Shown piece by piece: positions 8,699 through 26,775 of a DNA stretch of 64,000 bases. This DNA comes from Thermoplasmatota archaeon. Its GTDB lineage: Archaea > Thermoplasmatota > E2 > JACPAO01 > JAHFTW01. Position 1 is the first letter of the stretch. Each line of letters starts with the position of its first letter. The position numbers and the translations under genes were made by a program. Location of the stretch: NCBI GenBank assembly GCA_041601615.1, contig JBFIHX010000001.1:371997-435996 (forward strand), given 5' to 3'. Below the pieces are notes generated by a model. The model had not been told where the DNA came from. It worked only from the letters and a program-made list of their open reading frames with translations, and did not search any database.

Positions 8699-8761
8699 GC
8701 ATTCAGATGCGCACCGCCTGCTTATGCCTCTTTCCCTGGGAATTGCCAGCCCGGAAACGGC

Positions 8762-12095: not shown

Positions 12096-13483
12096 GCAAA
12101 GCTGGTGTGCGTTTCCTTGCCGGCGGGGTCGGCGTTGTGGTGCAGAATGTAGAATCCGCCGTGTGCGTCGCCGGTGATCATGTAGCCATTCCAGACGACC
12201 ACGTCCCAGGCTCCGACGCTGTAGTTAGCGCCGTCCATGCGGGGTTCGTGGGGCATGTAGCTGCCGACGGGTTCGGGAGCGGCGAGGTTCGCGTCGCTGT
12301 CTACGTCGAGGACCCAGAGGCCGCCGTGGTACATGGCGAGGTACAGTTTTCCGTCCACGAATTGGAAATTGTGCATTGAAAAGCTGCCACTTTCGCCTTC
12401 AAAGTCCTCCAGTGCGGTCCATTCGGCCAGCAGTTCCGGGGCGGAGTAGTCGGTGGTGTCGAGGATGAAGAGAGCGGGCGGGTTGGCGCCTTCGGGAATG
12501 GTGGCGGTGATGCGGCGGTCGCCGCCGGGTGTCTCGTGTTTCCAGCTCATGGAGGTGTGGAGGACTCCGTCGTATTTCGTCGCCCCTTCGCCCATCCAGG
12601 AACCTATTTCGATGGGCACTTCGGGGATGCTGACGTCTACGAAGCGGACGCCGAGGTTCCAGAAGCTGACCATGAGCATTGGGGTGCCGGTGAGTGGGTC
12701 TTCTTGGTAGGTCATGTCCTGGTGGCCGCTGACAAAGTGCGTGGGCCAGCCGCTCGGGTTTTCCTGTAGCAGATTCACTTCTTGACCTACGTATTTGGTG
12801 GTGGCGGGGGTCCAGCGGGCGACCGTGAGCACCTCGCGAACACCGTTGACTTCGGGCAAGAGTTGGCCGACGTAGATGGCGTTGTCCAGGGGGGCGCAGA
12901 AGAGGTATTCTTGTTCGTCGATGATGGCGTACTCGACCATATGGCAGCCTGCTAGGAGGCCGGGTACGGGCCAGAAGCCGGCGAGCACCGGGTTTTGCTT
13001 GTCTCGGGTGTCGTAGATGAGGAGGCCAGGGGTGGCGCTCAATTCCATGCCGAGAAAGACCCAGTCTCCTGTGCTGTCTACTTTCAAGTCGGCGGTGTAT
13101 TTGCCCAGGACGAGGGATTCGGGTGCGACGGTTTCGGTCAGGCTGACCAATTCGGGGTTGGCGGAGTCGGCGAGGTCGACGATGGCAAAGCCGTAATCGA
13201 ACAACGTGACGAAGGCGTAGCCGCCTGCCACATCGATTTCACCAATGCGGCCGGGGGGCCCGTTGGCGCCGAGGGGGTTGTGGCCGATGAGGTCCACGTT
13301 GTTGCTGAGTGTGTGCGCGGAAAGGTCGCCGTGTTCGTGGCCGTCTCCTGAAAGAACGACGGGATTGACGAAGGGTTGCAGCGCGTTGTCTACGAGCGAG
13401 TCGGCGGGGTCTGGGGTGTCTGAATCCAAGCATCCGGAGAAGCCGAGGCCAACAAGCAGGAACGTCAGGAGGAGGACGCGCAT
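12092..13483 (-). CDS. LVIVD-repeat beta-propeller lipoprotein
   Basis: Lipobox FSGC; repeats FAIVDLADSANP, LLIYDTRDKQNP, VRFVDVSIPEVP, LWVLDV. Start placed at ATG 13483. Confidence 0.85.
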   Translation of the reverse strand: MRVLLLTFLLVGLGFSGCLDSDTPDPADSLVDNALQPFVNPVVLSGDGHEHGDLSAHTLSNNVDLIGHNPLGANGPPGRIGEIDVAGGYAFVTLFDYGFAIVDLADSANPELVSLTETVAPESLVLGKYTADLKVDSTGDWVFLGMELSATPGLLIYDTRDKQNPVLAGFWPVPGLLAGCHMVEYAIIDEQEYLFCAPLDNAIYVGQLLPEVNGVREVLTVARWTPATTKYVGQEVNLLQENPSGWPTHFVSGHQDMTYQEDPLTGTPMLMVSFWNLGVRFVDVSIPEVPIEIGSWMGEGATKYDGVLHTSMSWKHETPGGDRRITATIPEGANPPALFILDTTDYSAPELLAEWTALEDFEGESGSFSMHNFQFVDGKLYLAMYHGGLWVLDVDSDANLAAPEPVGSYMPHEPRMDGANYSVGAWDVVVWNGYMITGDAHGGFYILHHNADPAGKETHTSFA

Positions 13484-13527
13484 CGAGCACGAGGCTGGGA
13501 CGGGCAACTTTAGGTTTGGGGTGATGC

Positions 13528-13547
13528 CACGAGCGTTCCAAAAGTCC
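13528..13547 (+). repeat. Left terminal inverted repeat CACGAGCGTTCCAAAAGTCC
   Basis: Exact reverse complement of 25546-25565. Confidence 0.92.
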
Positions 13548-13662
13548 CAGCGGCTTCCATAACTAGGGGAACCAATTGCTAAATGGGGGGCCCTAAGGAG
13601 AGGGCGTTCAAGGGGTGAGGTGGGGGAGTAGGTTGCATAAGTGGGGGAGTCTGCCAGGGGCG

Positions 13663-13956
13663 TTAGTCTTGATGGGGTGGCTCCCGCCATCCTTCATCGC
13701 GTCGTTGCCTCCACCGGGCTTCGCGTTCTTTCCGCCATTGTTCGACTCGTTGGTGTTGATTTTCGAGTTCTTCCCGAGTGGGGCGGCGGAACGTCACAAC
13801 CACATAGTCGCCTTGGTCAATGCCTAGAGCTTCTGAATCATTTTTGGAAAACGGCACATAATGGACGAATCCCGTTCGGCGGATTCTCTTCGTGCGTTTC
13901 AGGGTCAGAGACTCAATCTCTGGGCAGTCTTCATGCGTCGTGTTTGTCGGGGTCAT
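13663..13956 (-). CDS. Small AbrB/MazE/SpoVT-like DNA-binding protein with charged C-terminal helix (97 aa)
   Basis: KRIRRTGFVHYVPFSKNDSEALGIDQGDYVVVTF fits the swapped-hairpin pattern; start overlaps the upstream ORF stop. Confidence 0.65.
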   Translation of the reverse strand: MTPTNTTHEDCPEIESLTLKRTKRIRRTGFVHYVPFSKNDSEALGIDQGDYVVVTFRRPTREELENQHQRVEQWRKEREARWRQRRDEGWREPPHQD

Positions 13957-14300
13957 AGTTTCACTTCCATTCGTGGTTTTCTTTCCTGGTGTTTGGCCCA
14001 AGGTGGGCCGTCTAGTACGACCTGGATTTCTCCTGTAAACAGGGTTCCGAGGTCTTCGTAAAGGGCAGGGTAAGTAGTGCGAAGGTGATCCTCCAATTCT
14101 CGAAGGGCGGTGGAAACGCGATTTATGGCGCAGATTTCGGATTCGTCGAGATTGATGACGTACCCACCCATGACACGGGCAACGCGCAACTCTCGAAGGT
14201 CTGCCAAAGAACTGTGAATGTGTGTTCCGACAACGGTTCCCAAAGTCCCACTTGTCCAAGCACCGTGGCGAATTGGTGCAAGAACACGAATTACAACCAC
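13953..14300 (-). CDS. Hypothetical protein
   Basis: ORF coupled to the downstream AbrB-like gene; start uncertain. Confidence 0.45.
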   Translation of the reverse strand: MVVIRVLAPIRHGAWTSGTLGTVVGTHIHSSLADLRELRVARVMGGYVINLDESEICAINRVSTALRELEDHLRTTYPALYEDLGTLFTGEIQVVLDGPPWAKHQERKPRMEVKL

Positions 14301-14372
14301 CCCCGCAAAGCTGGCCAGATTCGAGGCTCAAATCCAGGGATACGGTTGATTGAGCATCTTTGATTGTCGGTG

Positions 14373-14660
14373 CTACTTTTCACGGCGACAGCCCCCCATT
14401 TCAATGATGACAAGTGACCCACAGGCTGGACAAGACGCCGACCAGATGCCTACGGGGCCTGCATCTGGATCTTCGACTTGCCCCCATTGCGTGATGGGGG
14501 TGTTGCAGCCTCGGCACTCGACCGGAGATCTTGTGGGCCGCTGCTGGCAAACAAAATCGAAGCGGGGAGATTTTGCCTCCGATTCGCCGGAGAACCTGTT
14601 TGAGGCGTTTTGGGCCATGTGGGCCAATAGCCCACTTGGGCTACTTATCATCTGCCCCAA
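14373..14660 (-). CDS. Small zinc-ribbon protein
   Basis: CRGC...CPACG pair; start uncertain (14618, 14651 or 14660). Confidence 0.5.
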   Translation of the reverse strand: MGQMISSPSGLLAHMAQNASNRFSGESEAKSPRFDFVCQQRPTRSPVECRGCNTPITQWGQVEDPDAGPVGIWSASCPACGSLVIIEMGGCRREK

Positions 14661-14731
14661 ATAGGCTGTTGACCCATATGGGCCATTTATATTGCGCGGG
14701 CTTTTAGCCCTGGGCCGACATCTGGCCCAAC
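14605..14731. promoter_or_regulatory. Divergent promoter region rich in TGGGCY/RGCCCA half-sites, with a TATA-like TTTATATT
   Basis: TAGCCCA-CT-TGGGCTA (14628-14643), CCCATATGGG (14673-14682), TGGGCC-N7-GGCCCA (14711-14729), TTTATATT (14686-14693). Confidence 0.55.
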
Positions 14732-14905
14732 GTGGACGCGCGACCGAAGCCAGATGTAGCCCGGAGCATCGACAGCACAGGTCGATTGCGGCTACCGCCA
14801 GAAGTCAAGAAACGACTCAAACTTGACTCCGGGGATTCCGTTGGGTTCTTCTTTGAGGACGACCGAATCTGGATCAGTAAAGTCGAATTTGTGGCGACCG
14901 ACTAG
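14732..14905 (+). CDS. AbrB/MazE/SpoVT family DNA-binding protein (57 aa, absent from the ORF track)
   Basis: Manual translation MDARPKPDVARSIDSTGRLRLPPEVKKRLKLDSGDSVGFFFEDDRIWISKVEFVATD has the canonical IDxxGRxxLP...LxxGDxV pattern. Confidence 0.85.
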   Translation: MDARPKPDVARSIDSTGRLRLPPEVKKRLKLDSGDSVGFFFEDDRIWISKVEFVATD

Positions 14906-14909
14906 AGCC

Positions 14910-16364
14910 CTAAACGGTTCGCACCAATTCCGCGTCAGGCATTAGGGCCGCCGCTGGCTCCAATGGTCGCCATTCCATGCGTTGGTTGAACTCGATCATC
15001 CGACCTCGGGCCCCATCCACCGTTTGCGGGACGCATTGGTCGAAGAACGGACTAAGCCCTTCGATGGCGGCTTCTTCTCGTGGCTCGTCTCCGAGCCGGT
15101 GGTGCATTGCGTATACGTTCCGCCAAAACGCCGTCAGAATCATTGGATCGTCTGCCGACAATTCGAGTGCTGCTAGGAGCAACTGGCTTGCTTCCTGATT
15201 TCCGGCAGGGCCCCCCAATGACTCGGCCAGATTGATTCGAGACAATACGCGCCTGTAATTGTCGAGTGTTTCGTCGAATGCGGCAAGGGAACGGCGCATA
15301 TGAGTCTCAAAATCAGAGATTCGGTTTACCCGACGGAAGTGGATTGCCGCGTTTTCGAGTAGGTGTCCACGTTGAATGTCATTCAGCCCTTTCATGTCGG
15401 CGGCGATGCCAAGAGGAAGCCCTGCTTCGCGTTCCGTATCCCATCGCACAAGCCCTATGCTAGCCCTCTGGAGCAATATTGACCCGTACCGGCCCCACTC
15501 TGGGTCTTTCTCTGCCAATTCGAGCCAGAGCTTTCCTGCGGCCTCTGCGTCGTGCTTCGTATAATTGAAAACGCGAGGTGTTCGCAGGAGGGCTTCTTGG
15601 AGATCGGGGCCCTTGGAGCGCCACCAGTCGTTGACCAGGATACTTGAGACATGATTCGCTAGAACAGTGACTGCTAGCGGATGAACCAAAGTTTGAGCTT
15701 TGATGGATTTCTCCCTAGTGCCGTTTGAAAGTCGTGAAATTGCCATATGAACCTGTTCTCTGACTAGCCCCCATACTCGAAGGGTTTCAGGGTAAGTCCC
15801 CAGAATAAGGCCGTTAACCTCGATCCAGTCCAGGGCGTCCTTGAAGCGTTTCTTTGGAGCATCAAGCCAGTCCATAATGTCTGGTTCGGGATATTCGCCG
15901 GAGTGCCATTTCGTTTCGGACGTTTGGTCGAAAACGGTGGAGATTGTCGCCTGCCGTGCATCGTTGGATTTTGAGTGCTGGTCAATGGAGATTGCATCAG
16001 AGAGATACTTCTTCGCCATTCGGGCCTGTTGGCGACCGATATTTGCATCGCGACGACCCCCGGTTTCTGCCTTTGACCAATCTTGAAGAGATCCTTCTTC
16101 CGTGAGGGCCTTCGCGACAACGGCTGAAACTAGGGACTTGATGCGATTGTCATACTTGTTGGATTGCATTTCTCGGGCCACATGGCGGTGCAATCCGGGG
16201 TAGAAGCAACGACGGTTGAGAAATTCATTGTGAGGGCTGTCCTCGGTGATGACAAAATTTGGTGCTTGTTCTCGCTGGCGGTCCTGATCGGCTAAGGCGT
16301 ACTGGATGTACCCATGAGTGATGGCTGCAAGCGTGCTCCAGTCCAAATCTTCTGGTTTGTTCAT
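14910..16364 (-). CDS. Hypothetical 484-aa protein, C-terminal half TPR-like
   Basis: Long ORF with GAGGT SD; helical repeats such as HLLENAAIHFRR and LSRINLAESLG. Confidence 0.7.
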   Translation of the reverse strand: MNKPEDLDWSTLAAITHGYIQYALADQDRQREQAPNFVITEDSPHNEFLNRRCFYPGLHRHVAREMQSNKYDNRIKSLVSAVVAKALTEEGSLQDWSKAETGGRRDANIGRQQARMAKKYLSDAISIDQHSKSNDARQATISTVFDQTSETKWHSGEYPEPDIMDWLDAPKKRFKDALDWIEVNGLILGTYPETLRVWGLVREQVHMAISRLSNGTREKSIKAQTLVHPLAVTVLANHVSSILVNDWWRSKGPDLQEALLRTPRVFNYTKHDAEAAGKLWLELAEKDPEWGRYGSILLQRASIGLVRWDTEREAGLPLGIAADMKGLNDIQRGHLLENAAIHFRRVNRISDFETHMRRSLAAFDETLDNYRRVLSRINLAESLGGPAGNQEASQLLLAALELSADDPMILTAFWRNVYAMHHRLGDEPREEAAIEGLSPFFDQCVPQTVDGARGRMIEFNQRMEWRPLEPAAALMPDAELVRTV

Positions 16365-16402
16365 GATTACCTCGGGGGAAGAGGGGGATGAGGATTGAAG
16401 CC

Positions 16403-16528
16403 TTACTTGCGATTGGCTTCTGCTTTGGTTTGAGCCCCGGTGGGCGATTCACCACTCGATCGCCAGTGCGTCGGGTGCTGGGGGTTCAGTTGGTTGCTGC
16501 GGTTGTCGTTTTGCGCTTTGTCGGGCAT
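16403..16528 (-). CDS. 41-aa micro-protein with NDNRSNQLNP motif (absent from the ORF track)
   Basis: Manual translation MPDKAQNDNRSNQLNPQHPTHWRSSGESPTGAQTKAEANRK; AGGA upstream; ends 39 nt before the 484-aa gene. Confidence 0.6.
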   Translation of the reverse strand: MPDKAQNDNRSNQLNPQHPTHWRSSGESPTGAQTKAEANRK

Positions 16529-16609
16529 GTCTGTCTTCCTGCGGCGCTTGCCGTGATGGTACATAGCGCGACGAAAGACAAGTGGAAATCGGACAAAACT
16601 GGTTTTCTA

Positions 16610-18320
16610 GCCGAGATCGGTTGGCGAGTCTCGGCGCGAGATGTCTCGAATCTCGAAGTGAAACCCCGGAAGTCTGGGAAATCGAGACCCCTGAAACCAG
16701 TCTCGCGAGTCTCAAATGAAGGGTCCAGGGGAGACCCTTGCAACAGGAGGCCGAATCCGTCTCGCGAGACCCCGCCGAGACCCCCGAGACTCATTGGAGT
16801 CTCGGCTTGAGACCCCGAAATGGGTCACGCAACAGGAGAGCCGAGACCGAAATTGAAACCCCCCAGACCCCACGGACCGGGGAGTCTCAAGGAATCTCAA
16901 AAGGGGTCTCGCAACAGGAGACGGAGACCGAGTTTGAATCTCGTTTGGCTTCACGGGTCTCGTGGGACCTGATTTGGAGTCTCGAATTGGGGTCTCGGGT
17001 CGAGTGAACGGAGTTCATGCTCGGGGCCTCGGGGTCGTCCAGGAGGGGTTAGGATTGGGGTCGATTCAAGCCGTGGATTCGGGTCTTCGGACCCCAACAA
17101 ACGGAGTGTCCCGAAGCCGACCCCACCGGGTACCCGGAACCCGACGAAAACGGGTCTCCGACACCCACCCATCGGGTCCCGGAGACCCGACCCAAAACGG
17201 GTACCCAACACCCAACCCAGCCGGGTACCCGATACCCAATCCATTTTGGACCCTTGCAACAGGAGGCAGGACACCCGTTTTGGGTACCCATGAACCCAAC
17301 CCAAAGCGGGTACCCAGAACCCAACCCACGCGCAAACAAGGCCCCAACAGAGGTGGGTCTCGGATACCCACCCAACGGGTCCCAGGGACCCCACCCAAGC
17401 CGGGTACCCTGGAACCCCCATTCCGAATTACCCAGGGCTCAATCCATGAGATCCATCAACCCTGGGAAGGAGCCCCTTGTTTGAGGGGTTCGAGGGTTCG
17501 GCACAAGGGGTTCGGTTTTGAGGCTCGTTTGAACCCTTGCCGCTCCTGTTGCGGGGGTATGCTCGTGTGGGTTCGCGAAGGGTTGGCTTGTGAACGCTTG
17601 CGAGGGTTCGCGAGGGTAGGCTCGATTGAACCCTCGCGCCTCCTGTCGCAAGAGTAGGCTCGGGAGGGTTCGCGAACGTCGGCTCATGAACCCTGGCGAG
17701 GGTTCGCGAGGGTTCATTTTTCCGAGCATCCCAGGTGTTCGAGGGTTCGGAAATCGAACTCCGAGGATGTTCAGCTAGGGTTCAGGTTTGAGGGCTCGGG
17801 AGGGTTCGTGGGGTCGCTCTTACGGGGTTTGAATCGGGGTCGAATCTTGCCATGAATTCGGGCCTCCGGACCCCGGCAAACGGGGTACCCCGAACCCACC
17901 CCAAACGGGGTACCCCAAAGCCGACCCCACTGGGGTACCCCGCGACCCCGCCCTGATTCGGCCCCGCCAACGGAAGGAATCGACCCCACTTTGACCCCGG
18001 CACACGGGGTACCCCGATTTGGAACCCCAAAAACGGGGTCTGTCCCTCCTGTCAAATTGGGGTGGATTGGGTGGGGTCAAACGGGCCCCGAGCGGGGTAC
18101 CCCGGCAAAAAACCCCAAAAATCACCCCTTCCTCTCCTGTTAGATTGGGGTTGTTCTGGGTGGGGTCCAATAGACCCCACGCGGGGTAACCCAGAATTGA
18201 CCCCGCTGGCACCCCCACCGACCCCCAGATGGGCACCCCGAATCCGACCGCACGGAGAAATTCGGACCCTGCCTATCTGGCGCCGAACGGGTTCCGATCT
18301 GGGATTTTGGCCCCCGCCGA
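16610..18320. repeat. Non-coding region of four motif-saturated blocks with eight ACAGGAG boxes
   Basis: Blocks dominated in turn by GAGAC/GTCTC, GGGTACCC/ACCC, GGGTTC/GAACCC and GGGGTACCCC; ORFs here are only low-complexity. Confidence 0.85.
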
Positions 18321-18345
18321 TGGTGGTTGGATCGGCGGGTCGTGT

Positions 18346-21300
18346 TCAGGCACTTGCTTGAAGAATGCAGGTTTCGAGGTCTGTAATTTGGCGTTCATCG
18401 AACAAGGCATCCCATCCCTTCGGAGCCAGATCGGTAAACGGCGGCTCGTAGAGCGCCTTGATCTGAATGGACCCATGCTCGACGATGTAGTCCACGACCA
18501 TGTTGAGGAATTGGATTTGGTGCGAGTTCATGTTCCGTTCATTCAGGAATTTTCCGAATGCTCGTTTTGCTACGTCGCGATCCAAGCCGACGAGGGAACG
18601 CACGAACCCGGCCGTACCGTTTGCGGCCTCTCGGACTTGCTTTAGCATGGAATTGTCTGATCCGGCGATGCCTTCCAGGAGGGATTCGAGGTGTGCCAGT
18701 CCCTCTGAATTGAGGGGTTCACCACGTCGAACGCACTGTACCACGGGGTCTTCGTCGAGGCTTCGCAAGTGATACTTGGCCTTCTCGCGGAACCGCTGGA
18801 AATCACCATTTGTAGTCGTGCCGGGGAGAGTCAAGGGAACTGCCATACCAATTTCATCCTCGAAATCAGTATAGAGCGGGGTTCTTACGTGCTTGTCGAG
18901 GAGGTGAATGAGAGTACGCAACTGACGCCGGGCATGTTCCAGCATGGCCGTTGTCACGTCTTCCCACCAAGCGTCGGTTTGGAGGTCTTGAATCAGGTTC
19001 AATTCCTTTTGAACGACTGGAATGTTGCGCTTTTCCTCCAATCGTTCGGCCAGGGATCGCACCTTGTCACGCAAGCCCGGAGCGTTTGGATCATCGCGAA
19101 GAAGTGCAAGTTCAAGCGTGAGCATCATGAGGTCGAACCGCTTCGCCTCCTCCTGCTCTGGTGGCATTTCTGCGGGGAGCGGCGCGACTTTCTTTGCAAG
19201 CTCGGGCGCTTGTTCTGGCTCAAGGAAGCCCCAGGCTTCCTCTTTGCTAAATCGCTCCACGAGTTTTCGCTGGGGGCGCACGACGAAGTTCTCCAAGTTC
19301 ATGGAGGCTACCTCGTGGCGCAAGGTCTCGGCAAATTCCCGACGCAAGGGATCGGCTGCATCTGGCTTGTCGCCAGGGGGCCCGCCGTCGCGTTGGTCAA
19401 ATTCTTGAACGAGGCCCAAACGGGTTTGGAACAATCGCTCCTTGAGACTTGGCGCAACACTGGCACTTCCTTCGGGAAGGTCGAGGCTGAAGTGTTCCAG
19501 GTTGCGGCAAAAGTCGAAGATGAAGAACGACTTTTTGTCTTGCCCAGGGCCGAACAAGTTCTCGCAGAGGCGGGTTCCTCGTCCGATCATTTGCCAGAAT
19601 TTGGTCTTGGATCGAACGACTTTGAAGAAGACGAGGTTGCAGACTTCGGGAACGTCGATTCCCGTGTCGAGCATGTCCACGGAGATCGCCATTCCGGGGT
19701 CTGGGAGGCGTTTGAAGTCCTTGATGAGGGTATCAGCGTACTTGGTCTGGTAAGTGATTACACGGGCAAATTTGCCGGCCAAGTGGGGATAATGGACGTT
19801 GAAGCGTTTGTCGATGAAGTCTGCGTGGGCTTGATTCTTGGCAAAGATGATGGTCTTGGCCAACCGATCGCCGCCCTCGATTTTCTGGCCGTTTGTCATG
19901 ACATGGGCGAGTGCCTTGTCCACCGTGTCGTCGTTGAAGAGCCACTTGTTCACATGGTCGGCGTCCACGTCGCGGGGCGGTTCGTCCTCCTCCCCCCAAT
20001 CTAGGTTGTCCCACTGCTCTTTGTCTTCGTCTGGAAGCTCGTCGTAATGGATGCCTTCGCGAGGGAACAGGAGTGGGACAGAGTGGGCCTCTGGCGGAAC
20101 GAGGTAACGATCCTTGATGGCTTCATCCAGGTTGTAGGCGTCGGTGGGAACGCCTGCTTCCAAGTCAAAAGTCGAGTACGTGTTGCGTTCAATTTCGTCC
20201 TTGGGTGTCGCGGTGAGGCCGAGCAAGGGCGCGTCAAAGTACTCGAAAATTGCCTTGTATTTTCGGAAAATGGATCGGTGGGCCTCGTCGATAATAACCA
20301 AGTCGAAGTGGCCTACGCTGAATCGACGCTGGCCTTCTTTGACCTCGTCGATGAGGTTCATCATGGTGTGGTATGTGGAAACGTAGATGCGGCCTTCGGT
20401 GTCCTTTTCCTCAAGTAGGTTGACTGGGTTGAAGCTGGGGAGGTGCGTTTTGAAACCCTCACCGGCTTGATTGGCGAGTTCGCGCCGATCGGCCAAAAAC
20501 AGGATTCGTTTGGCCCAATTGGCTCGCATCATTACGTCTGCTAGAGCGATGGCGGTTCGGGTTTTGCCGGTGCCTGTCGCCATGACGAGGAGGGCCTTTC
20601 GGCGCTGGTCGGACTCGAAGGATTCACAGATGCGTCGAATTGCACGATTCTGGTAGTGCCGATCGACGATGGATTTCTTGATTTGGGTCTCTGCAAGGCT
20701 GTGGCGCGTGGTGCGGCGCTGGATGAGGAGTTGAAGTTCGGCCTTGCTGTAGAAGCCCTGAATTTCGCGTGGCGGGTAGCGGTCGTCTTCCCAAATCCAG
20801 TGTTTGTATCCGTTGCTGTAGAAGATCACGGGCCGTTGACCGGTTTCGGCTTCTAGGCAATCAGCGTAGAGCTTGGCTTGCTGTTGCCCAATTCGCGGGT
20901 CATTCTTGGTGCTCTTTGCTTCCACAATGCCCAGTGGTGAGCCGTCGTCGCCCCATAGAACATAATCGACGTAACCCTTTCGCGAGGGATTGGGCATTCC
21001 CTGGACTTCGTATTCGAGGTCATTGGGGCCATTGAGTTTCCAGCCAGCCTCCTTCAGGAGCAAGTCAATGAAGAAATCCCGCGTTTCTGCCTCGTTGAAG
21101 TCGTGGTCCACGGGGACGGCTTCGTTGGCTTTTCGGGTTTCCTCGATTTGGGCGCGAAGGCGCTTGAGCTCGTCGTTTAATTCGCCGTGAACGACTAGGA
21201 TTTTCGTGAGTTTTTCGTCTTGCTCGGCGCGTTGTGCTTGCAAGGCGGCGAGTTCGGCGGCGGTGCTCCTGGATCCTACGGCTTCTCGGGGAAGCAAGGA

Positions 21301-21702
21301 TTTGTCGAACTGCATGGGCCCCGGCGGGTCCTTGCTGTAGGTGCAAGCAAACCAGTACAGGATTTGCCAGAGTTCGCGCACGGCAGCGATTCCGTCTTCC
21401 TCTCGAATCGTGGCGGAGCCGTGGACCGCTTCGTTGCCAAGCCGAGCCAAGATTCGGCACTTGGTGAATACAGGTCGCCCCACGACATCCTGGAATGATG
21501 GTTCGTGGATGAGTGCCGAGAGATTGTCATTGTATGGAAGCTTGAGGCGATTGTCGTGCTTGTATGCCCAATGTAAGGCCAATTCCAGCGCACGGCGAGC
21601 ATGGAAACAGGCGGTGCGTGGGTCCGGGATGGCCAAGGATTCAGCTTGGAGGGCGGGTTCTTGGACCTCGGGGAATGAATTGAGGAACGGTAATTGATTC
21701 AC
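18346..21702 (-). CDS. hsdR: Type I restriction endonuclease subunit R (EcoAI/EcoEI-like, N-terminal DUF4145-like domain)
   Basis: VDYVL...IVEAK nuclease motif, QQQAKLYA, MATGTGKT, DEAHRS, LTATP and QMIGRGTR. Confidence 0.95.
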   Translation of the reverse strand: MNQLPFLNSFPEVQEPALQAESLAIPDPRTACFHARRALELALHWAYKHDNRLKLPYNDNLSALIHEPSFQDVVGRPVFTKCRILARLGNEAVHGSATIREEDGIAAVRELWQILYWFACTYSKDPPGPMQFDKSLLPREAVGSRSTAAELAALQAQRAEQDEKLTKILVVHGELNDELKRLRAQIEETRKANEAVPVDHDFNEAETRDFFIDLLLKEAGWKLNGPNDLEYEVQGMPNPSRKGYVDYVLWGDDGSPLGIVEAKSTKNDPRIGQQQAKLYADCLEAETGQRPVIFYSNGYKHWIWEDDRYPPREIQGFYSKAELQLLIQRRTTRHSLAETQIKKSIVDRHYQNRAIRRICESFESDQRRKALLVMATGTGKTRTAIALADVMMRANWAKRILFLADRRELANQAGEGFKTHLPSFNPVNLLEEKDTEGRIYVSTYHTMMNLIDEVKEGQRRFSVGHFDLVIIDEAHRSIFRKYKAIFEYFDAPLLGLTATPKDEIERNTYSTFDLEAGVPTDAYNLDEAIKDRYLVPPEAHSVPLLFPREGIHYDELPDEDKEQWDNLDWGEEDEPPRDVDADHVNKWLFNDDTVDKALAHVMTNGQKIEGGDRLAKTIIFAKNQAHADFIDKRFNVHYPHLAGKFARVITYQTKYADTLIKDFKRLPDPGMAISVDMLDTGIDVPEVCNLVFFKVVRSKTKFWQMIGRGTRLCENLFGPGQDKKSFFIFDFCRNLEHFSLDLPEGSASVAPSLKERLFQTRLGLVQEFDQRDGGPPGDKPDAADPLRREFAETLRHEVASMNLENFVVRPQRKLVERFSKEEAWGFLEPEQAPELAKKVAPLPAEMPPEQEEAKRFDLMMLTLELALLRDDPNAPGLRDKVRSLAERLEEKRNIPVVQKELNLIQDLQTDAWWEDVTTAMLEHARRQLRTLIHLLDKHVRTPLYTDFEDEIGMAVPLTLPGTTTNGDFQRFREKAKYHLRSLDEDPVVQCVRRGEPLNSEGLAHLESLLEGIAGSDNSMLKQVREAANGTAGFVRSLVGLDRDVAKRAFGKFLNERNMNSHQIQFLNMVVDYIVEHGSIQIKALYEPPFTDLAPKGWDALFDERQITDLETCILQASA

Positions 21703-22631
21703 AGGCGCGGCACCCCATAGATGGCCTCAGAATCAAATTGTCGAAGAGCATACGGCGTTACACCGGCTAGGAGCATAGTAGTTGAAAGCCAGTCTCGAAG
21801 CGTAAGATCACGAGACGGCAAGTCTCGGCTAGTTCCGTGGCGCACCCCGCCATACTTGTTTGCAAATGAAGAAACTTGGATTGCTGCACCTTTTACCTGC
21901 CCGTGCGGCCAGTCCTTGATTTCGGCAAGCATCGCGTTCAAGGTTTGGGCAGCAACGTCGGGGTGCGTTGCACCAAGGGATTCCAAATGGATAATGTGAC
22001 TTGCTACACAGTTTTTGACACGTTTTTCGGAAATTCCAAGGCGTAAATCGCGCATTGATTCCTTAAATTCATCAAGGCGTTGCGCTTGTACTGCATCTTG
22101 ATAGCAGGAATTCTCGATGTTGCGAACAAATGATGATAATAGGCCCGGCAATGTAGGGTAGATTCGGCCTGACGCCTGCAACTCGTAGCGCAAACTGTAG
22201 GTGTCAATGAAGTGATGCCAAAGAGACAGGTACAGATCCGTTAGCCCAGGGAGCGAAAATTCCTCAAGTGTTTCAAAGACAGACTCCATGAAGCAGATAA
22301 TTTCTGACTCTGTCCGGAGACCACGAACTAGTTTTACTTGGAATTTAGCGGGTAGTGCATCAATTGCATCATCGCCCAGATCTTTAGCTAGTTCCGCCCC
22401 TCTCTCTTGACGGGCCTGTCTGACTTTTCGCTCGACTGGAATTTCGGCTGGAGTGCCTGCCACATTGCCTCGTGCCGCCTGCTCTTTAGCACGTTGAAGG
22501 CGATCCAAATGTGAGTGAAGCAAAGTATACAGGTCTGCTGTCAAACTAGCGGGGGCCCGATCATAGTCCAAAAGGGGTTGCCAGATTTCGTCACTGGATC
22601 TTGCCCATATGGGCTGGAATTCGCCCCTCAT
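21699..22631 (-). CDS. Accessory protein inside the hsd operon, AbiJ/HEPN-like C-terminus
   Basis: 4-nt overlaps with hsdS and hsdR; C-terminal FANKYGGVRHG resembles the AbiJ-type G(I/V)RH motif. Confidence 0.6.
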   Translation of the reverse strand: MRGEFQPIWARSSDEIWQPLLDYDRAPASLTADLYTLLHSHLDRLQRAKEQAARGNVAGTPAEIPVERKVRQARQERGAELAKDLGDDAIDALPAKFQVKLVRGLRTESEIICFMESVFETLEEFSLPGLTDLYLSLWHHFIDTYSLRYELQASGRIYPTLPGLLSSFVRNIENSCYQDAVQAQRLDEFKESMRDLRLGISEKRVKNCVASHIIHLESLGATHPDVAAQTLNAMLAEIKDWPHGQVKGAAIQVSSFANKYGGVRHGTSRDLPSRDLTLRDWLSTTMLLAGVTPYALRQFDSEAIYGVPRL

Positions 22632-23818
22632 ACACTACCCCTAGAAAACAAATGAAATTGAATGCTTGCTTGAAACGTATTTGCATGTTCCAAGCAATCG
22701 CTCAACAACTGTCGCTGCCGTTCAATTGCTGCAATCTGAGAAGCAAACTTAAATTGCAGTTCTACCGGGGGCAATGGGATTTTTGCTCGGGCCAGCCGAC
22801 CCTTTGAGATGTTTGGCATAGAACCGGCAGATCCTCCGGCCAAATCCTGAATTCGTTCACGCTGGCCAGGGTGCATCAAAAGTGCGGCTAGGTATTCCCC
22901 ATTTGTTTTATCATTCTTCAGAATGAGTCGAAATATCAAATCAGGGATTAGCAGTTTGTTTCGAGTTTCCCGGACAACTGCACACGCCCCTACGAGGTCG
23001 CGTGTATTCTTTCGAGTAAAGAGAACGTCGCCTTCCCGCACTTCGTTGGCGCTTTCATAATGTGTGCCCATTGGAAGTGCTTTGTTTTTGGTGGCATTGT
23101 ATCGACCCCATGTTACTGCACCAAGTTTCAGCACGCCCCACTCGTCGGGTTCGGCGGGCCGAGCGTGGCATTTGGGGCTCTTGCCACTGTCTATTTTGTA
23201 GATAATATCCTGTAATTCCACCACACCCCATCCCTTTTCATTCAGGATGGGATCTCCAAACATCTCCAAAAATAGCGATTGCTCTAACTCGTCAAGCAAT
23301 GCCAAGGCACGTTTGCGTTTGGCGAGGAGGGCGTCGGATTGGTCGAGGATTTTGGCGATGCGGCGTTGTTCGGGGAGGGGAGGAAGGGGGATTTTGAGGC
23401 TCTTAACTATGCCTTGACTAATATTGGGTTGGGCACCGCCGACCCCTTTGGCAATTATTGATTTCACTTGGGCAGACAATGCATAATAGAGGTAGTCTCG
23501 GTCTACGCGATCGTTATTGGGAATCAGGTGACAAACAGCTTGATTTGTCGTAGCTTCAATTCCGAGAATCCCGAGTCGGCCAACTGTGGCCCCATACATT
23601 GCGAGCAGAATAGAATCCGGGGGAATTAGCTTCAGCCTCGCTGCCTTCACCGCAGCCCCTGTTATTTTTTCTTGAGTGTCGAGTATTGTACTTTCGCGTA
23701 ATTCGCCTGATTTTACCCAAGGTATGGTGCCCCCATCATAATAATCTGCTAATTTTTTACGTGACGGGGTAGAACCTGAGCCGACTTGACAAATTTCTCC
23801 AATTAATGCCGTTCTCAA
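22628..23818 (-). CDS. hsdS: Type I restriction-modification specificity subunit S
   Basis: Two AT-rich TRDs; conserved IPLPPLPEQRRIAKILD and IPLPPVELQFKF segments. Confidence 0.95.
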   Translation of the reverse strand: MRTALIGEICQVGSGSTPSRKKLADYYDGGTIPWVKSGELRESTILDTQEKITGAAVKAARLKLIPPDSILLAMYGATVGRLGILGIEATTNQAVCHLIPNNDRVDRDYLYYALSAQVKSIIAKGVGGAQPNISQGIVKSLKIPLPPLPEQRRIAKILDQSDALLAKRKRALALLDELEQSLFLEMFGDPILNEKGWGVVELQDIIYKIDSGKSPKCHARPAEPDEWGVLKLGAVTWGRYNATKNKALPMGTHYESANEVREGDVLFTRKNTRDLVGACAVVRETRNKLLIPDLIFRLILKNDKTNGEYLAALLMHPGQRERIQDLAGGSAGSMPNISKGRLARAKIPLPPVELQFKFASQIAAIERQRQLLSDCLEHANTFQASIQFHLFSRGSV

Positions 23819-25353
23819 ACCAACATCCCCTCGAGCTCCTTCAACTCCTTCTGAATCTCATCTTCGAGCGCCTGTAATTCTCGAATAATCTCCAATGGGT
23901 CGCGGTGTTCTACGGGCTCGTAGACTTCCTTCTTGTATCGGTTAATGGACAGGTCGTATCCCTCGGCTGCAATATCGGCCTTCGACACGCAGAAAGATTG
24001 GTCCGTTCGCTCTCGCTTCAGTTCGTCTCCCTCGCGGTTGGACCACCGTTTTAGGGCATCTGGGAGGTTGTTCTTTTCGTGGTCCTCGTCGGAGAGAGGC
24101 ACCGCCGGAGCCACACCCAGTTTGCCTTCGTCTAGGAGTTCTTGCCGCTTGTCGTCAAGGCTCCAACCGTCGGCCTTCATGTCGTAGAACCAAACGTGGT
24201 CCGTGCCGCCGCTGTTGGTCTTGGTGAACAACAGAATCGCCGTGCTGACTCCGGCGTAGGGCTTGAAGGCGCCACTGGGAAGGCTCACAATGCCCTCCAA
24301 TTGCTGCTCCTCTACCAGCATTTGCCGAAGCGCCTTGTGGGCCTTCGTGGAGCCAAACAAGACGCCGTCGGGGACAATAACGGCCGCGCGGCCGCCGGTC
24401 TTCAACAAGCGCAAGAAAAGCGCCAGGAACAATAGTTCCGTCTTCTTCGTCTTGACAATCGCCAACAAGTCCTGGGCCGTTGCCTCGTAGTCAAGGCTCC
24501 CCGCAAATGGCGGATTGGCCAGAATCAAGGAGAAAGCATTCGACACGCCCGAATGGGCCTCTTCTAGGGAGTCCCGATACTCGATGCGAGGATTCTCCAC
24601 GCCATGCAGCATCATGTTCATGCTCCCAATGCGCAGCATCGTCGAATCAAAGTCGAACCCGTGAAACAGGTCCGAATTGAAGTGGTCGCGGGGCGCACGG
24701 TTCAGCAACGCATCCGCTTGGTGCTTGCGAATGTACTCCCCCGCCTCCACCAAGAAACCCGCCGTGCCACACGCCGGGTCGCAAATTTCGTCCGAAATAG
24801 TCGGCTCGCGCATGGCCACCATGAGTTGGATGATGTGGCGCGGAGTGCGGAACTGGCCGTTTTGGCCGGCACTTGCGATCTTGCCAAGCATATACTCGTA
24901 CAAGTCGCCCTTCGTGTCCCGATCTTCCATTGGAATCTTCTCAAGCAAGTCCACGACCTTCGCCAAAAGAGCCGCCTTGGGAATCGTAAACCGGGCGTCC
25001 TTCATGTGCTTGGCATACGTCGAATCGTCCCCGCCCATCTCGCGCAAGAACGGGAATACACGATCCGCCACAACCGAAAACATCAGTTCCGGCGCCATAT
25101 TCGTAAACCGCGACCAGCGCAAATCCGAGTATGAACGACTAAACTCGTCCTCGCCAGACGGGAACACCGGCCGCTCGATTGGCTCCTTTAGCCGACTCGC
25201 CTTGTTTTCTGCTAAGGTGTGCAAATCATCCAACCGCTTGATGAACAACAGATACGTAATCTGCTCCAAGACCTCCATTGGATTGGCAATCCCACCACTC
25301 CAAAAGGCATCCCAGACCGCATCCACCTTCGATTTAACCTCGCCAGTAATCAC
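23815..25353 (-). CDS. hsdM: Type I N6-adenine DNA methyltransferase subunit M
   Basis: GQFRTPRHII, DPACGTAGFL and NPPF motifs. Confidence 0.95.
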   Translation of the reverse strand: MITGEVKSKVDAVWDAFWSGGIANPMEVLEQITYLLFIKRLDDLHTLAENKASRLKEPIERPVFPSGEDEFSRSYSDLRWSRFTNMAPELMFSVVADRVFPFLREMGGDDSTYAKHMKDARFTIPKAALLAKVVDLLEKIPMEDRDTKGDLYEYMLGKIASAGQNGQFRTPRHIIQLMVAMREPTISDEICDPACGTAGFLVEAGEYIRKHQADALLNRAPRDHFNSDLFHGFDFDSTMLRIGSMNMMLHGVENPRIEYRDSLEEAHSGVSNAFSLILANPPFAGSLDYEATAQDLLAIVKTKKTELLFLALFLRLLKTGGRAAVIVPDGVLFGSTKAHKALRQMLVEEQQLEGIVSLPSGAFKPYAGVSTAILLFTKTNSGGTDHVWFYDMKADGWSLDDKRQELLDEGKLGVAPAVPLSDEDHEKNNLPDALKRWSNREGDELKRERTDQSFCVSKADIAAEGYDLSINRYKKEVYEPVEHRDPLEIIRELQALEDEIQKELKELEGMLV

Positions 25354-25545
25354 GCAAAAGCCCCCAAGAGGGAAGCGAGGGAATCATTAGACGCAAGCGT
25401 CACACCGGAACAAGTGCCACCAAGCAGGGCCACAACAGGCAAACAAGGGGCCCACATTAGGCGGTTTCCTACCTGGCCTCCCCCGCCCGGACGGCATCAG
25501 ATTTCAAAATGGGGGGAGGCGAATTTCAAAATGAGGGGCGCGGCT

Positions 25546-25565
25546 GGACTTTTGGAACGCTCGTG
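25546..25565 (-). repeat. Right terminal inverted repeat
   Basis: GGACTTTTGGAACGCTCGTG followed by GTGATGC. Confidence 0.92.
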
Positions 25566-25579
25566 GTGATGCCCCGACT

Positions 25580-26041
25580 TTGTCCCGTAAGGTTCGAGTG
25601 GCGGGCGGATTTGCGCAGTCTGTGGCCAAGCCAGCGCCCCCCACTGACGTTGATGCACTTCTGGCCGCGGCAAGTCCTCGGTTCCAAGCCGTGCACAAGG
25701 CGCTCGGCACCGCCGTACGCGAGGTATTCTCGGAAGCCACGAAATCGGTTGCGTGGAATATGCCCGGCTGGATCATCCCCGTGCCCCAGCCCCCTGCCGA
25801 GGCGGATTGGAAGGGAACGCTGCCCCGCACGCACTTGACGATCCTGGCAAGCGAGAAGAAGGCAGGCTTGACATTCCACGTTTGGCACCCGAATCGACCT
25901 GGCTTGCTGCAAGAGGAGGCGGCCTGGCTCAAAGCGGCCGGTTTCAAGCCGATGGTGGGTTGCGTGCAGTGGAACCGCAAAGGTGATCCGCCGATGGAGG
26001 CCTTTGAGCGGCTGCTTCGTGTGGCCAGGGATGCGTGTTGA
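25580..26041 (+). CDS. Hypothetical protein, DUF1801/YdhG-like
   Basis: VDALLAA...VAWNMPGW...FKPMVGCV pattern; overlaps the alaX-like gene. Confidence 0.55.
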   Translation: MSRKVRVAGGFAQSVAKPAPPTDVDALLAAASPRFQAVHKALGTAVREVFSEATKSVAWNMPGWIIPVPQPPAEADWKGTLPRTHLTILASEKKAGLTFHVWHPNRPGLLQEEAAWLKAAGFKPMVGCVQWNRKGDPPMEAFERLLRVARDAC

Positions 26042-26775
26042 TGGAGGGGCGAGCGGGCCAGGAGCGACTCTGGATCACCGAGCCCCGTCGCGTCACTTGC
26101 CTCTGCACCGTAACGGCAGTCCAAGGCGATCGCTTCGTGGTGGATCGCGCCCTGTTTGCCCCTCGCAGCCGCGCAGTCAGGCACCCGCAGTACGCGGACG
26201 CTGGAACGGTCTGGTGGGATGGCGAAAAGAGAAGGCTCGCCAGCGTCGAGGACCGCGATGGAACGGTTTGGTATCGGCTTCGGGGCACGGTGCCGGAGGT
26301 GGGTGTGGAGTTGCAGTGTCAACTGGACCAAGACATCCGTGATTTGAACGACCGGGCACACACGGCGATGCATCTGTTGATTGCGGCGTTGCAGCAGGCG
26401 GGCGCGCCTCCGATGACGGCGGACCCGGAGGTCAAGGGTGGTGGCAATGCGCGGTTGACGTTCCAGCGCCCGGTGGCGCGCAATGTGCTCGCGGCAGCGG
26501 TGCAGCGCGTGACGCAGTGGATTCAGGCCGATGTTCCGGTGCAGCGGGCGTGGGCCACACGGGCAGAAGCAGAGCGGTTTGCCACCGTACAGAATTTTTC
26601 GCCTTTTGACCCGGTGCCGGGTGGCGATCCGGTGCCACTTGTGCGCATCGAGGGTGTTTGCGTGTTTGGCTGCGATGGCACGCACGCGGACCGGACGGGG
26701 CGCGTCGGGGGGTTCGGCATCGGCCACGCGGCGCAGGGGAAGGAGGGTTTTGTTGTGGTGGGGCGCGTGCTCTAG
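26035..26775 (+). CDS. AlaX-like tRNA-editing protein (AlaX-M type)
   Basis: Zn-binding HTAMH and CDGTH motifs, plus QYADAG in the N-domain. Confidence 0.8.
   Translation: MLMEGRAGQERLWITEPRRVTCLCTVTAVQGDRFVVDRALFAPRSRAVRHPQYADAGTVWWDGEKRRLASVEDRDGTVWYRLRGTVPEVGVELQCQLDQDIRDLNDRAHTAMHLLIAALQQAGAPPMTADPEVKGGGNARLTFQRPVARNVLAAAVQRVTQWIQADVPVQRAWATRAEAERFATVQNFSPFDPVPGGDPVPLVRIEGVCVFGCDGTHADRTGRVGGFGIGHAAQGKEGFVVVGRVL

What the first reader, a model, noticed from the sequence alone, without database searches (positions are those of the whole stretch)
13521..25572. 12-kb TIR/TSD-bounded defence transposon with no recognisable transposase
Seen: 13528-13547 (CACGAGCGTTCCAAAAGTCC) is the exact reverse complement of 25546-25565, and GTGATGC flanks both ends as a direct repeat. 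An equivalent reading is 21-bp TIRs starting CCAC with a 5-bp TSD TGATG. The reconstructed empty site is symmetric (GGGG-TGATG-CCCC) and lies between two divergent host genes. Established: TIR plus TSD is the footprint of DDE transposases or casposases. I see no DDE transposase, Cas1, PolB, or Tyr/Ser recombinase inside. Inference: this is either a large non-autonomous cargo transposon mobilised in trans, or one of its unknown ORFs is a new type of mobiliser. Large size, TIRs, an internal repeat region and small DNA-binding genes loosely recall Asgard aloposons, but this may be an undescribed archaeal family moving R-M/Abi defence.
Basis: partly seen in the sequence, partly recalled or inferred. 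Interest (0 to 1): 0.92.

Follow-up and report, generated by a model that had tools for sequence, protein, structure and literature searches.

The report
Transposase-less defence transposon of viral family
A 12-kb piece of archaeal DNA carrying a restriction-modification defence system is a genuine transposon insertion that has no transposase of its own, and its sister element elsewhere in the same genome carries both the matching transposase and virus capsid genes.

Summary
The element (E1) runs from 13529 to 25564 (12,036 bp). It has 18-bp terminal inverted repeats (ACGAGCGTTCCAAAAGTC) and a 9-bp target duplication (GGTGATGCC), not 5 or 7 bp. It carries a type I R-M operon with an embedded AbiJ-like gene, a TPR protein, a Zn-ribbon/AbrB gene pair and a 2-kb repeat-rich stretch. 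No transposase or recombinase was detected. Two sisters with the same ends exist. E2 lies in the same genome (contig C2, 12,278 bp, TSD CTGGGAGGT). E3 lies in a congeneric genome (TSD CCAACCGCC). The E2 and E3 sites are unoccupied in the other genome, each holding one copy of the 9-mer. E2 encodes an IS5-like DDE transposase next to one end, a double jelly-roll capsid protein (Foldseek E 3e-15 to the STIV MCP) and an ATPase. A syntenic 12,432-bp contig in another family of the order ends in homologous inverted repeats. E1 is therefore best read as a transposase-less, capsid-less relative of a virus-like DDE transposon, able to move only in trans. Trans-mobilisation itself is inferred. No empty site for E1 was found. 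Bacterial R-M units with TIR/TSD and no transposase are in print; I found no archaeal case and no virus-like partner.

The parts
13520..13528 (.). left copy of the 9-bp target site duplication GGTGATGCC
   Evidence: the 9-bp length is fixed by the sisters E2 and E3 and their empty sites
13529..13546 (+). left terminal inverted repeat, core ACGAGCGTTCCAAAAGTC
13575..13590 (+). subterminal motif ATTGCTAAATGGGGGG, related to the two copies at the right end and in the same absolute orientation
   Evidence: family D11; the E3 end is 91% identical over 13529-13605
13663..13956 (-). 97-aa ORF of unknown function; no family match, so the gene is uncertain
14373..14660 (-). Zn-ribbon protein (95 aa), shared with E2
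   Evidence: weak Pfam DZR hit; blastp to the E2 ORF gives E 7e-17, 35% over 63 aa
14732..14905 (+). AbrB/MazE-fold DNA-binding protein (57 aa), shared with E2 and divergent from the Zn-ribbon gene
   Evidence: Pfam MazE_antitoxin E 1.5e-5, 25.3 bits against a cut-off of 24.7; blastp to the E2 ORF gives E 1e-5
14910..16364 (-). 484-aa protein with TPR repeats in its C-terminal half; N-terminal half unknown
   Evidence: 21 relatives at E<=1e-3; 11 of 17 aligned members match TPR_12; the profile hits consensus TPR structures at E 1e-9; the AF2 model was unusable, pLDDT 42
16400..18340 (.). repeat-rich stretch with no ORF matching any family. It holds five exact GCAACAGGAG copies, GGGTACCC/GGGGTACCCC palindromes at 24-25-bp spacing, and a piece (17147-17281) related to the Pro/Thr-rich linker of an E2 gene
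18346..21702 (-). hsdR, type I restriction subunit (1118 aa)
   Evidence: Pfam ResIII, EcoEI_R_C and HSDR_N; PADLOC REase_I E 5e-176
21699..22631 (-). 310-aa gene inside the R-M operon, possibly AbiJ-like
   Evidence: no Pfam, NCBIfam, PHROG or PADLOC match; Atlas feature search gives clusters with AbiJ_NTD4 on 40-60% of members, score 0.95, which is a lead only
22628..23818 (-). hsdS, specificity subunit (396 aa)
   Evidence: Pfam Methylase_S E 1.8e-38, two stretches
23815..25353 (-). hsdM, methyltransferase subunit (512 aa)
   Evidence: Pfam N6_Mtase E 2.8e-58 and HsdM_N E 1.9e-15
25501..25538 (+). two subterminal copies of ATTTCAAAATG(G/A)GGGG, 22 bp apart
   Evidence: family D11; also present at the matching E3 end
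25547..25564 (-). right terminal inverted repeat, identical core
   Evidence: a contig of run X1 departs from the window exactly after 25564 into the E2 flank (table 7)
25565..25573 (.). right copy of the 9-bp target site duplication GGTGATGCC

Best explanation
E1 (window 13529-25564) is a 12,036-bp non-autonomous DNA transposon. It belongs to a family of about 12-kb elements found in this archaeal order. Their complete members are virus-like: a double jelly-roll capsid protein, an ATPase and other conserved genes. They insert with an IS5-like DDE transposase encoded next to one end, which makes a 9-bp staggered cut (shown by the duplications and by empty sites). E1 keeps the family's 18-bp ends, the subterminal sequences and a small Zn-ribbon/AbrB regulatory gene pair. 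In place of the capsid module and the transposase it carries a type I R-M operon with an Abi-like gene, and a TPR protein. Inferred: E1 can be cut out and re-inserted only by a transposase supplied in trans. The obvious source is E2 on contig C2 of the same genome, because E1's ends fall within the variation between E2's own two ends. Once inserted, the R-M/Abi cargo protects or addicts the host.
For: (1) The ends are real: the TIR is not found in shuffles, and a blind scan for a 9-bp direct repeat plus at least 12/18 TIR matches returns only E1 in its 19-kb locus and only E2 in its own. (2) Three elements share the ends, each with a different perfect 9-bp duplication: E1 GGTGATGCC; E2 at G000:C2:312335-324612, CTGGGAGGT; E3 in congeneric G002, CCAACCGCC. 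(3) Empty sites: both flanks of E2 align onto a single 9-mer CCGGGAGGG in G002:C3. The right flank of E3 aligns locally, and the left flank in a global alignment, to G000:C3 up to a single CGCCCCGCC. (4) E2 encodes a DDE_Tnp_1 protein (Pfam E 5e-7; NCBIfam IS5 E 3e-18, below cut-off). It is single-copy in the genome, with no inverted repeat closely flanking the gene among the 25 longest of 84 pairs listed for E2. D324, D401 and E465 are invariant in 6 of 6 aligned homologues. (5) The transposase belongs to the element: the 12,432-bp contig G029:C91 is syntenic with E2 from the C2H2 protein through ATPase and MCP to the transposase at the same end. The contig terminates in the inverted repeats GGCTGCGTTCCTAAA, which match the E1 core at 12 of 18 positions. 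(6) E1's TIR differs from E2-right at 1 of 18 and from E2-left at 3 of 18 positions, while E2's two ends differ from each other at 3 of 18. (7) E1 has no transposase by tblastx against E2 or by family scans. (8) E1 shares only the Zn-ribbon ORF, the AbrB ORF and a linker-like piece with E2. (9) The E2 capsid protein: AF2 pLDDT 84; Foldseek top hits are STIV MCP E 3e-15 and PM2 P2 E 6e-15, followed by PRD1 P3.
Against: No empty site for E1 itself was found. Its flanks are not in G002, and in G001 the neighbourhood is rearranged, lacking the LVIVD gene as well. No second copy of E1 with the same cargo exists in any collection searched. The R-M could therefore have replaced the viral genes after insertion, in which case the present E1 may never have moved. 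E1's subterminal sequences resemble E3's (91% and 81%) far more than E2's, so its natural partner may be an E3-type element whose interior is unassembled. No transposase homologue was found in G002 (86% complete). The transposase scores below NCBIfam's IS5 cut-off and has no solved relative by sequence. Its activity and its binding to these ends are untested.
Confidence: 0.62

Rival explanations
1. Immobile relic. A complete virus-like element inserted here by transposition, and its capsid and transposase genes were later replaced in place by a horizontally acquired R-M/Abi block. On this reading E1 as it stands has never moved, and may never move.
For: The R-M part has distinctly lower GC (0.48-0.56 at 21500-24500) than the left module (0.54-0.62). 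There is a 2-kb decayed-looking repeat stretch with only a linker-like remnant of an E2 gene. No second copy with this cargo was found.
Against: Both TIRs are identical over 20-21 nt and the 9-bp duplication is perfect, so the ends remain usable substrates. A matching transposase gene with intact catalytic residues sits in the same genome. The two readings differ only in history, not in present capacity.
Confidence: 0.25
2. Satellite of the virus-like element. E1 is not only transposed but also packaged by E2-type capsids, and so spreads its defence cargo between cells.
For: Near-identical lengths despite unrelated cargo: E1 12,036 bp, E2 12,278 bp, G029:C91 12,432 bp. Shared ends and a shared regulatory gene pair. 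A contig that ends at the TIRs fits a free linear form with transposon ends.
Against: Three lengths are few. The G047 relative is 9,887 bp. No virion data exist. The contig ends may simply be assembly breaks.
Confidence: 0.1
3. Autonomous element with a new kind of mobiliser among its unknown ORFs (the 484-aa, 310-aa or small ORFs).
For: Those ORFs have no assigned function in Pfam, NCBIfam, PHROGs or PADLOC.
Against: The 484-aa family is TPR-repeat and is absent from E2 and G029:C91. The 310-aa ORF sits inside the R-M operon and looks AbiJ-like. Among the family members searched (E2, G029:C91, the G047 candidate), the gene that sits inside TIR/TSD-bounded elements is the DDE transposase.
Confidence: 0.03

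Closest known systems
Bacterial R-M units flanked by inverted repeats and short target duplications, without a transposase (Furuta, Abe and Kobayashi 2010, PMC2853133; passages read)
   Same: R-M genes inside a unit with terminal inverted repeats, a short target duplication (8 bp there) and an empty site in a relative, with no transposase inside. The authors raise trans-mobilisation as a possibility.
   Different: Those cases are bacterial; the paper states that no archaeal system survived its screen. No partner element was identified. Here the unit is 12 kb, the duplication is 9 bp, and a sister with a transposase is in the same genome.
Mobile insertion cassettes (MIC231 moved in trans by IS231A in Bacillus cereus). 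Recalled from memory; no paper was read.
   Same: IS-type ends flanking passenger genes, no transposase, mobilised by the cognate IS enzyme.
   Different: MICs are 1-2 kb and derive from a plain IS. E1 is 12 kb and derives from a virus-like element.
Polintons/Mavericks of eukaryotes and transposable phage Mu (features recalled; Polintons are mentioned in passages of PMC5894146)
   Same: For the family, not E1 itself: capsid genes plus a DDE-type integrase or transposase, terminal inverted repeats and a fixed short target duplication.
   Different: Polintons use an rve-type integrase, protein-primed PolB and a 6-bp TSD. Mu is a tailed phage with a 5-bp TSD. E2 has an IS5-like (DDE_Tnp_1) enzyme and a 9-bp TSD, and no polymerase was found.
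HGV-2 gut Vinavirales prophages with an IS630-family DDE transposase (PMC9502842; one passage read)
   Same: Double jelly-roll prokaryotic viruses proposed to integrate with a DDE transposase.
   Different: They are bacterial, use a different transposase family, and the passage read reports no TIR/TSD or empty-site evidence. No transposase-less derivative is mentioned there.
Asgard aloposons (PMC8813620; passages read)
   Same: Large archaeal mobile elements with cargo.
   Different: Aloposons are defined there by tandem genes for 3,000-6,000-aa proteins, integration at tRNA genes and a MinD/ParA ATPase block. E1 has none of these.
Casposons (PMC4046053 seen in search listings only; features recalled)
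   Same: Archaeal TIR/TSD-bounded elements of similar size.
   Different: No Cas1 and no PolB in E1 or E2. The TSD is 9 bp, against about 14-15 bp recalled for casposons.

Membership tests
DDE cut-and-paste transposon, non-autonomous member | terminal inverted repeats shared by the copies | tested here: met
   The same 18-bp core is seen at 5 of 6 ends with at most 3 mismatches. The sixth end (E3_b) also has 3 mismatches.
DDE cut-and-paste transposon, non-autonomous member | target site duplication of fixed length, different at each site | tested here: met
   9 bp in E1, E2 and E3, and in the G047 candidate.
DDE cut-and-paste transposon, non-autonomous member | empty site with a single copy of the target in a relative | tested here: inconclusive
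   Met for E2 and E3. Not obtainable for E1: its flanks are absent from G002 and rearranged in G001.
DDE cut-and-paste transposon, non-autonomous member | no transposase inside, with a cognate transposase elsewhere in the genome on an element with matching ends | tested here: met
   E1 has none. The E2 transposase is L018:4908-6545.
DDE cut-and-paste transposon, non-autonomous member | actual mobilisation in trans | not testable with these tools
   Needs a transposition assay.
IS5 family (as defined by NCBIfam NF033579) | transposase scores above the curated cut-off | tested here: not met
   66.3 bits against a cut-off of 140. This makes it IS5-like, not a member by that model.
Type I restriction-modification system | hsdM, hsdS and hsdR together | tested here: met
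Double jelly-roll capsid virus (Varidnaviria-type), asked of E1 | DJR major capsid protein and packaging ATPase | tested here: not met
   E1 shows no similarity to the E2 MCP or ATPase. E2 itself meets it.
Casposon | Cas1 integrase and family B polymerase | tested here: not met
   No such Pfam or NCBIfam match in E1 or E2.
Aloposon | tandem giant genes (3,000-6,000 aa), tRNA target, MinD/ParA block | tested here: not met
   The largest ORF is 1118 aa, HsdR. The nearest tRNA is at 38694. No ParA match.
Integrase-borne genomic island | Tyr/Ser recombinase and att direct repeats, often at a tRNA gene | tested here: not met
   No recombinase. The ends are inverted repeats with a 9-bp duplication.

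The most novel reading that the evidence does not exclude
The family is an archaeal counterpart of Polintons: a double jelly-roll virus that lives as a DDE transposon, with an 18-bp TIR, a 9-bp TSD and a free linear form ending at the TIRs. E1 would be its capsid-less satellite of the same genome length. It would be transposed and packaged by the helper, and would ferry a type I R-M/Abi defence between cells.
Probability: 0.12. Interest if true: 0.95.

Novelty: new variant of a known kind. Interest (0 to 1): 0.74.

Why it matters
R-M units bounded by transposon-like ends but lacking a transposase have been a loose end since 2010, with no partner known and no archaeal case. A 2019 survey of archaeal integrated elements stated that cargo-bearing DNA transposons had not been detected in archaea (PMC6563490, Discussion passage). 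Here the likely partner is visible in the same genome, and it is itself unusual: a capsid-encoding element that inserts like an IS. If confirmed, this gives a directly testable pair (transposase plus two kinds of substrate). That pair could show how defence genes ride on virus-derived transposons in marine archaea. It would also be a prokaryotic parallel to the virus/transposon duality of Polintons.

Tried and rejected
- Chance TIR/TSD: rejected.
- Reads: four runs X1-X4, all from one study and all kept as contigs (X1 may be the source), were laid on 11500-27500. Contigs bridge the left junction (X3, 13469-15096) and the right junction (X2, 25091-25899; X3, 25013-25823). No contig joined across the element, so no empty-site or excision form was seen. 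Contigs drop rare variants, so this says little.
- Genome-contig scan with the 15-mer ACGAGCGTTYCAAAA: 120 rows from unrelated bacteria and archaea, which is noise from too short a pattern.
- IMG/VR (18-mer, 1 locus) and JGI metagenomes (19-mer, 5 loci): all six lack the subterminal sequence and are chance matches.
- The TIR core with up to 2 mismatches was found in 2 of 38 genomes of the order, both in genus g1.
- Loci of 30 transposase matches in 11 of 32 family genomes do not carry the ACGAGCG core and share only the transposase with E2. Their own ends were not resolved, except for one candidate in G047, whose flanks gave no clean empty site in 13 genomes of its genus.
- MCP profile: no relative in IMG/VR or INPHARED phages. 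It was found in 2 of 197 class genomes and 1 of 401 sampled phylum genomes.
- The transposase has no match in phage records.
- The Zn-ribbon hits at G000:C2:118273, G001:C332 and G002:C159 are short chromosomal look-alikes, not elements.
- AF2 of the 484-aa protein failed (pLDDT 42), so no fold search was run on it.
- Rfam found nothing in 13000-26000. The promoter/terminator scan was at shuffle level.
- The Charybdis elements paper describes unrelated 4.6-kb circles.
- Supplements of the papers were not opened. Those of PMC5894146 and PMC9502842 may list elements bearing on the claim that no archaeal DJR element with a DDE transposase is in print. That claim rests only on searches.

Full report
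**What is there**

The repeat finder gives a 21-nt perfect pair at 13527-13547 / 25546-25566. The 20-mer, allowing 3 mismatches, occurs only at these two places in the window and never in 100 shuffles. The enclosed 12 kb has lower GC (0.48-0.57) than the flanks (0.60-0.64). It sits between two divergent host genes: an LVIVD-repeat lipoprotein (12092-13483, minus strand) and a DUF1801 protein (from 25580, plus strand).

**Content of the element (E1)**

From right to left, all on the minus strand:
- hsdM (23815-25353), hsdS (22628-23818), a 310-aa gene (21699-22631) and hsdR (18346-21702). Pfam and PADLOC identify the three R-M subunits strongly.
- The 310-aa gene has no family match. The Atlas feature search places it near clusters carrying AbiJ_NTD4 (score 0.95; a lead only).
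- A 2-kb stretch follows (about 16400-18340) without any ORF that matches a family. It is filled with short repeats.
- A 484-aa gene (14910-16364, minus strand).
- A divergent pair of small genes: a 57-aa AbrB/MazE-fold protein (14732-14905, plus strand; Pfam E 1.5e-5) and a 95-aa Zn-ribbon protein (14373-14660, minus strand).

The 484-aa protein has one close relative (65% identity) and 21 relatives at E<=1e-3 in the 1.84-billion representative library. Of 17 aligned members, 11 match TPR_12. The profile matches consensus TPR structures at E 1e-9 over positions 273-447. Its AF2 model was unusable (pLDDT 42).

No ORF matched a transposase, Cas1, polymerase or Tyr/Ser recombinase in Pfam, NCBIfam, PHROGs or PADLOC. 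Rfam found nothing.

**Sister elements and the true ends**

The 18-mer ACGAGCGTTCCAAAAGTC, allowing mismatches, marks a second pair of ends in the same genome. These lie at G000:C2:312335 and 324612 and bound a 12,278-bp element, E2. Each end is flanked by CTGGGAGGT.

In the congeneric genome G002, two contigs stop 117 and 75 nt inside a third element, E3. Its ends are 91% and 81% identical to E1's left and right ends, and each is flanked by CCAACCGCC.

Aligning the six ends puts the tip at the A of ACGAGCG. That makes E1's duplication GGTGATGCC, 9 bp (13520-13528 and 25565-25573). The 5- and 7-bp readings come from the GG...CC ends of the target, which extend the inverted repeat by chance.

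A blind scan for any perfect 9-bp direct repeat enclosing ends with at least 12/18 inverted matches returned only E1 in its 19-kb locus and only E2 in its own. The core with up to 2 mismatches was found in 2 of 38 genomes of the order, both in this genus.

**Empty sites**

- In G002:C3, the left and right flanks of E2 lie next to each other, and both alignments run onto one 9-mer, CCGGGAGGG.
- In G000:C3, the flanks of E3 are contiguous. The right flank aligns up to a single CGCCCCGCC, where G002 has CCAACCGCC twice. The left flank is more diverged but collinear.
- For E1 no empty site could be obtained. G002 lacks both flanks. In G001 the right-flank genes abut the gene that lies beyond the LVIVD gene, so both the LVIVD gene and the island are missing.
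- In more distant relatives (G014, G018, G021, G022) the LVIVD gene and right-flank genes lie on one contig within a few kb, in varying order.
- Contigs of four runs from one study bridge both junctions, and none skips the element.

**What E2 is**

E2 shares with E1 only three things: the Zn-ribbon gene (blastp E 7e-17), the AbrB gene (E 1e-5) and a short piece of the repeat stretch. E2 is inverted relative to E1.

Next to its other end E2 has an open frame of 545 codons with a DDE_Tnp_1 domain (Pfam E 5e-7). NCBIfam gives IS5 family at E 3e-18, 66 bits against a cut-off of 140. The gene is single-copy in the genome. No inverted repeat closely flanks it among the 25 longest of the 84 pairs found in E2.

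The protein database holds 44 relatives at E<=1e-10. Where they are named, they are called only 'transposase'. In an alignment of six homologues, D324 (HPDGTGL), D401 (GGDKAY) and E465 (NNxExGN) are invariant. That these correspond to the IS5-type DDE motifs is my recollection, not a tool result.

Upstream lies an operon that includes a 245-aa P-loop ATPase (AAA_16/AAA_22; weak PHROG hit to terminase). Directly after it comes a 285-aa protein whose weak hits were all to capsid proteins: Pfam P2_C at E 1.4e-3, and the STIV coat protein by sequence at E 0.27. With 21 homologues (alignment A1), AF2 gave pLDDT 84.4 and pTM 0.77. Foldseek's best hits are the STIV MCP (E 3.3e-15, TM 0.71), PM2 P2 (E 6.1e-15) and then PRD1 P3 and PBCV-1 Vp54. 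This is a double jelly-roll major capsid protein.

**The family beyond this genus**

The MCP profile finds G029, in another family of the order, twice (2 of 197 class genomes; 1 of 401 sampled phylum genomes, G000 only).
- G029:C91 is a whole contig of 12,432 bp, collinear with E2: the C2H2 zinc-finger/Pro-Thr-linker protein, ATPase, MCP, seven further ORFs, and the transposase (49% identity) as the last gene. The contig begins and ends with the inverted repeat GGCTGCGTTCCTAAA (positions 1-15 and 12414-12428), which matches the E1 core at 12 of 18 positions. This is either a free linear form or an assembly break at the element's ends.
- G029:C187 is an integrated copy whose end, GGCTGCGCTCCAAAAGCC, abuts host DNA.

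Because the transposase keeps its terminal position in two elements this far apart, I take it to be the family's own enzyme and not a nested IS.

A further transposase homologue, in G047, lies inside a candidate 9,887-bp unit. Its ends GGCTGTGTC... match the C91 repeat at 13 of 18 positions. It has a 9-bp duplication CGCCCCACC and a KwaB-like gene. No empty site was found for it.

**Reading**

Shown:
- E1 is a transposon-type insertion of a family with fixed 18-bp ends and 9-bp duplications.
- Sisters E2 and E3 have verified empty sites.
- E1 lacks a transposase.
- A sister in the same genome has a DDE transposase with intact conserved acidic residues, together with capsid genes.

Inferred:
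- The DDE enzyme makes the 9-bp staggered cut and recognises the 18-bp ends.
- It can act on E1. E1's ends differ from E2's two ends at 1 and 3 of 18 positions, no more than E2's ends differ from each other (3 of 18).
- The R-M/Abi cargo serves defence or addiction.

The main uncertainty is history. The R-M block, with its lower GC, may have replaced the viral genes after insertion. E1's closest ends belong to E3, whose interior is not assembled.

**The repeat stretch**

In E2 and G029:C91 the corresponding DNA encodes the Pro/Thr-rich linker of a conserved protein. That protein has an N-terminal C2H2 finger and a C-terminal hydrophobic domain (blastp between the two: E 3e-46 pairwise, 1.3e-44; Pfam zf-C2H2). 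In E1 only linker-like similarity survives (17147-17281, tblastn E 1.3e-6). Neither terminal domain is detectable, so I regard most of it as decayed or reshaped.

E1 nevertheless holds five exact GCAACAGGAG copies within 16740-17552, out of 29 in the whole 2.79-Mb genome. None occurs in E2, C91, C187 or the G047 locus. Their role is unexplained.

**Comparison with what is known**

- Furuta et al. 2010 (passages) described bacterial R-M units with inverted repeats, 8-bp duplications and empty sites but no transposase. They left trans-mobilisation open, and no archaeal case passed their screen.
- Krupovic et al. 2019 (passage) wrote that transposons with passenger genes had not been detected in archaea.
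- Yutin et al. 2018 (passages) found prokaryotic DJR (pro)viruses with tyrosine integrases and one group with Cas1. Its seven 'transpos' occurrences, in the passages shown, concern casposons and polintons.
- A 2022 paper notes IS630-type DDE transposases in one group of bacterial Vinavirales prophages (passage).
- Aloposons are defined by giant tandem genes, tRNA targets and a ParA block, none of which is present here.
- My four searches found no archaeal DJR element with a DDE transposase and no transposase-less derivative of one. Supplements were closed, and subscription journals are not covered.

**Verdict**

The kind of element, an R-M unit in transposon ends without a transposase, is known from bacteria. 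What is new is the archaeal setting, the identified partner and the partner's viral nature. I rate it a new variant of a known kind, with interest 0.74.

Noticed in passing
G000:C2:312335-324612 (L018 4336-16613), outside the window: E2 is a 12,278-bp element with the same TIRs and a 9-bp TSD CTGGGAGGT. It encodes a DJR capsid protein, a P-loop ATPase, a C2H2/Pro-Thr-linker protein, an RNase H-like (RVT_3) protein and an IS5-like DDE transposase. Its site is empty in G002:C3.
   Followed up: yes
L192 = G029:C91:1-12432: A whole contig collinear with E2 whose two ends are the inverted repeat GGCTGCGTTCCTAAA. It may be a free linear genome or an assembly break. It also has an extra 457-aa ORF (8702-10075) before the transposase, which was not examined.
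   Followed up: partly
L050 (G047:C24) 8231-18117: A candidate 9,887-bp unit with related ends, a 9-bp duplication CGCCCCACC, a transposase homologue in the middle and a KwaB-like (Kiwa defence) gene at 16720-17673, preceded by a 176-aa ORF. No capsid gene was found in that genome.
   Followed up: partly
window 16740-17552: Five exact GCAACAGGAG copies (four on the plus strand, one on the minus) out of 29 in the genome. They are interleaved with GAGTCTC, GGGTACCC and GGTTCGCGA palindromes and are absent from the sister elements. Function unknown.
   Followed up: partly
window 38694-38766 and 39378-39449: Two tRNA-Thr genes (TGT and GGT) about 600 bp apart, unrelated to the element.
   Followed up: no
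G000:C2:118273-118386; G001:C332:4425-4553; G002:C159:1268-1393: Short chromosomal look-alikes (36-41 aa, about 50% identity) of the element's Zn-ribbon protein, one per genome of the genus. This suggests the element's gene has a host relative.
   Followed up: partly
L018:4908-6545 (-): The protein database holds this transposase only as a 275-aa call (P0025), although the frame is open for 545 codons and homologues align from about residue 116. The true start is unsettled.
   Followed up: no
protein lists: Many clusters of MCP and transposase relatives have their longest contig between 9 and 15 kb, which would fit complete elements assembled on their own. The contigs could not be fetched.
   Followed up: no
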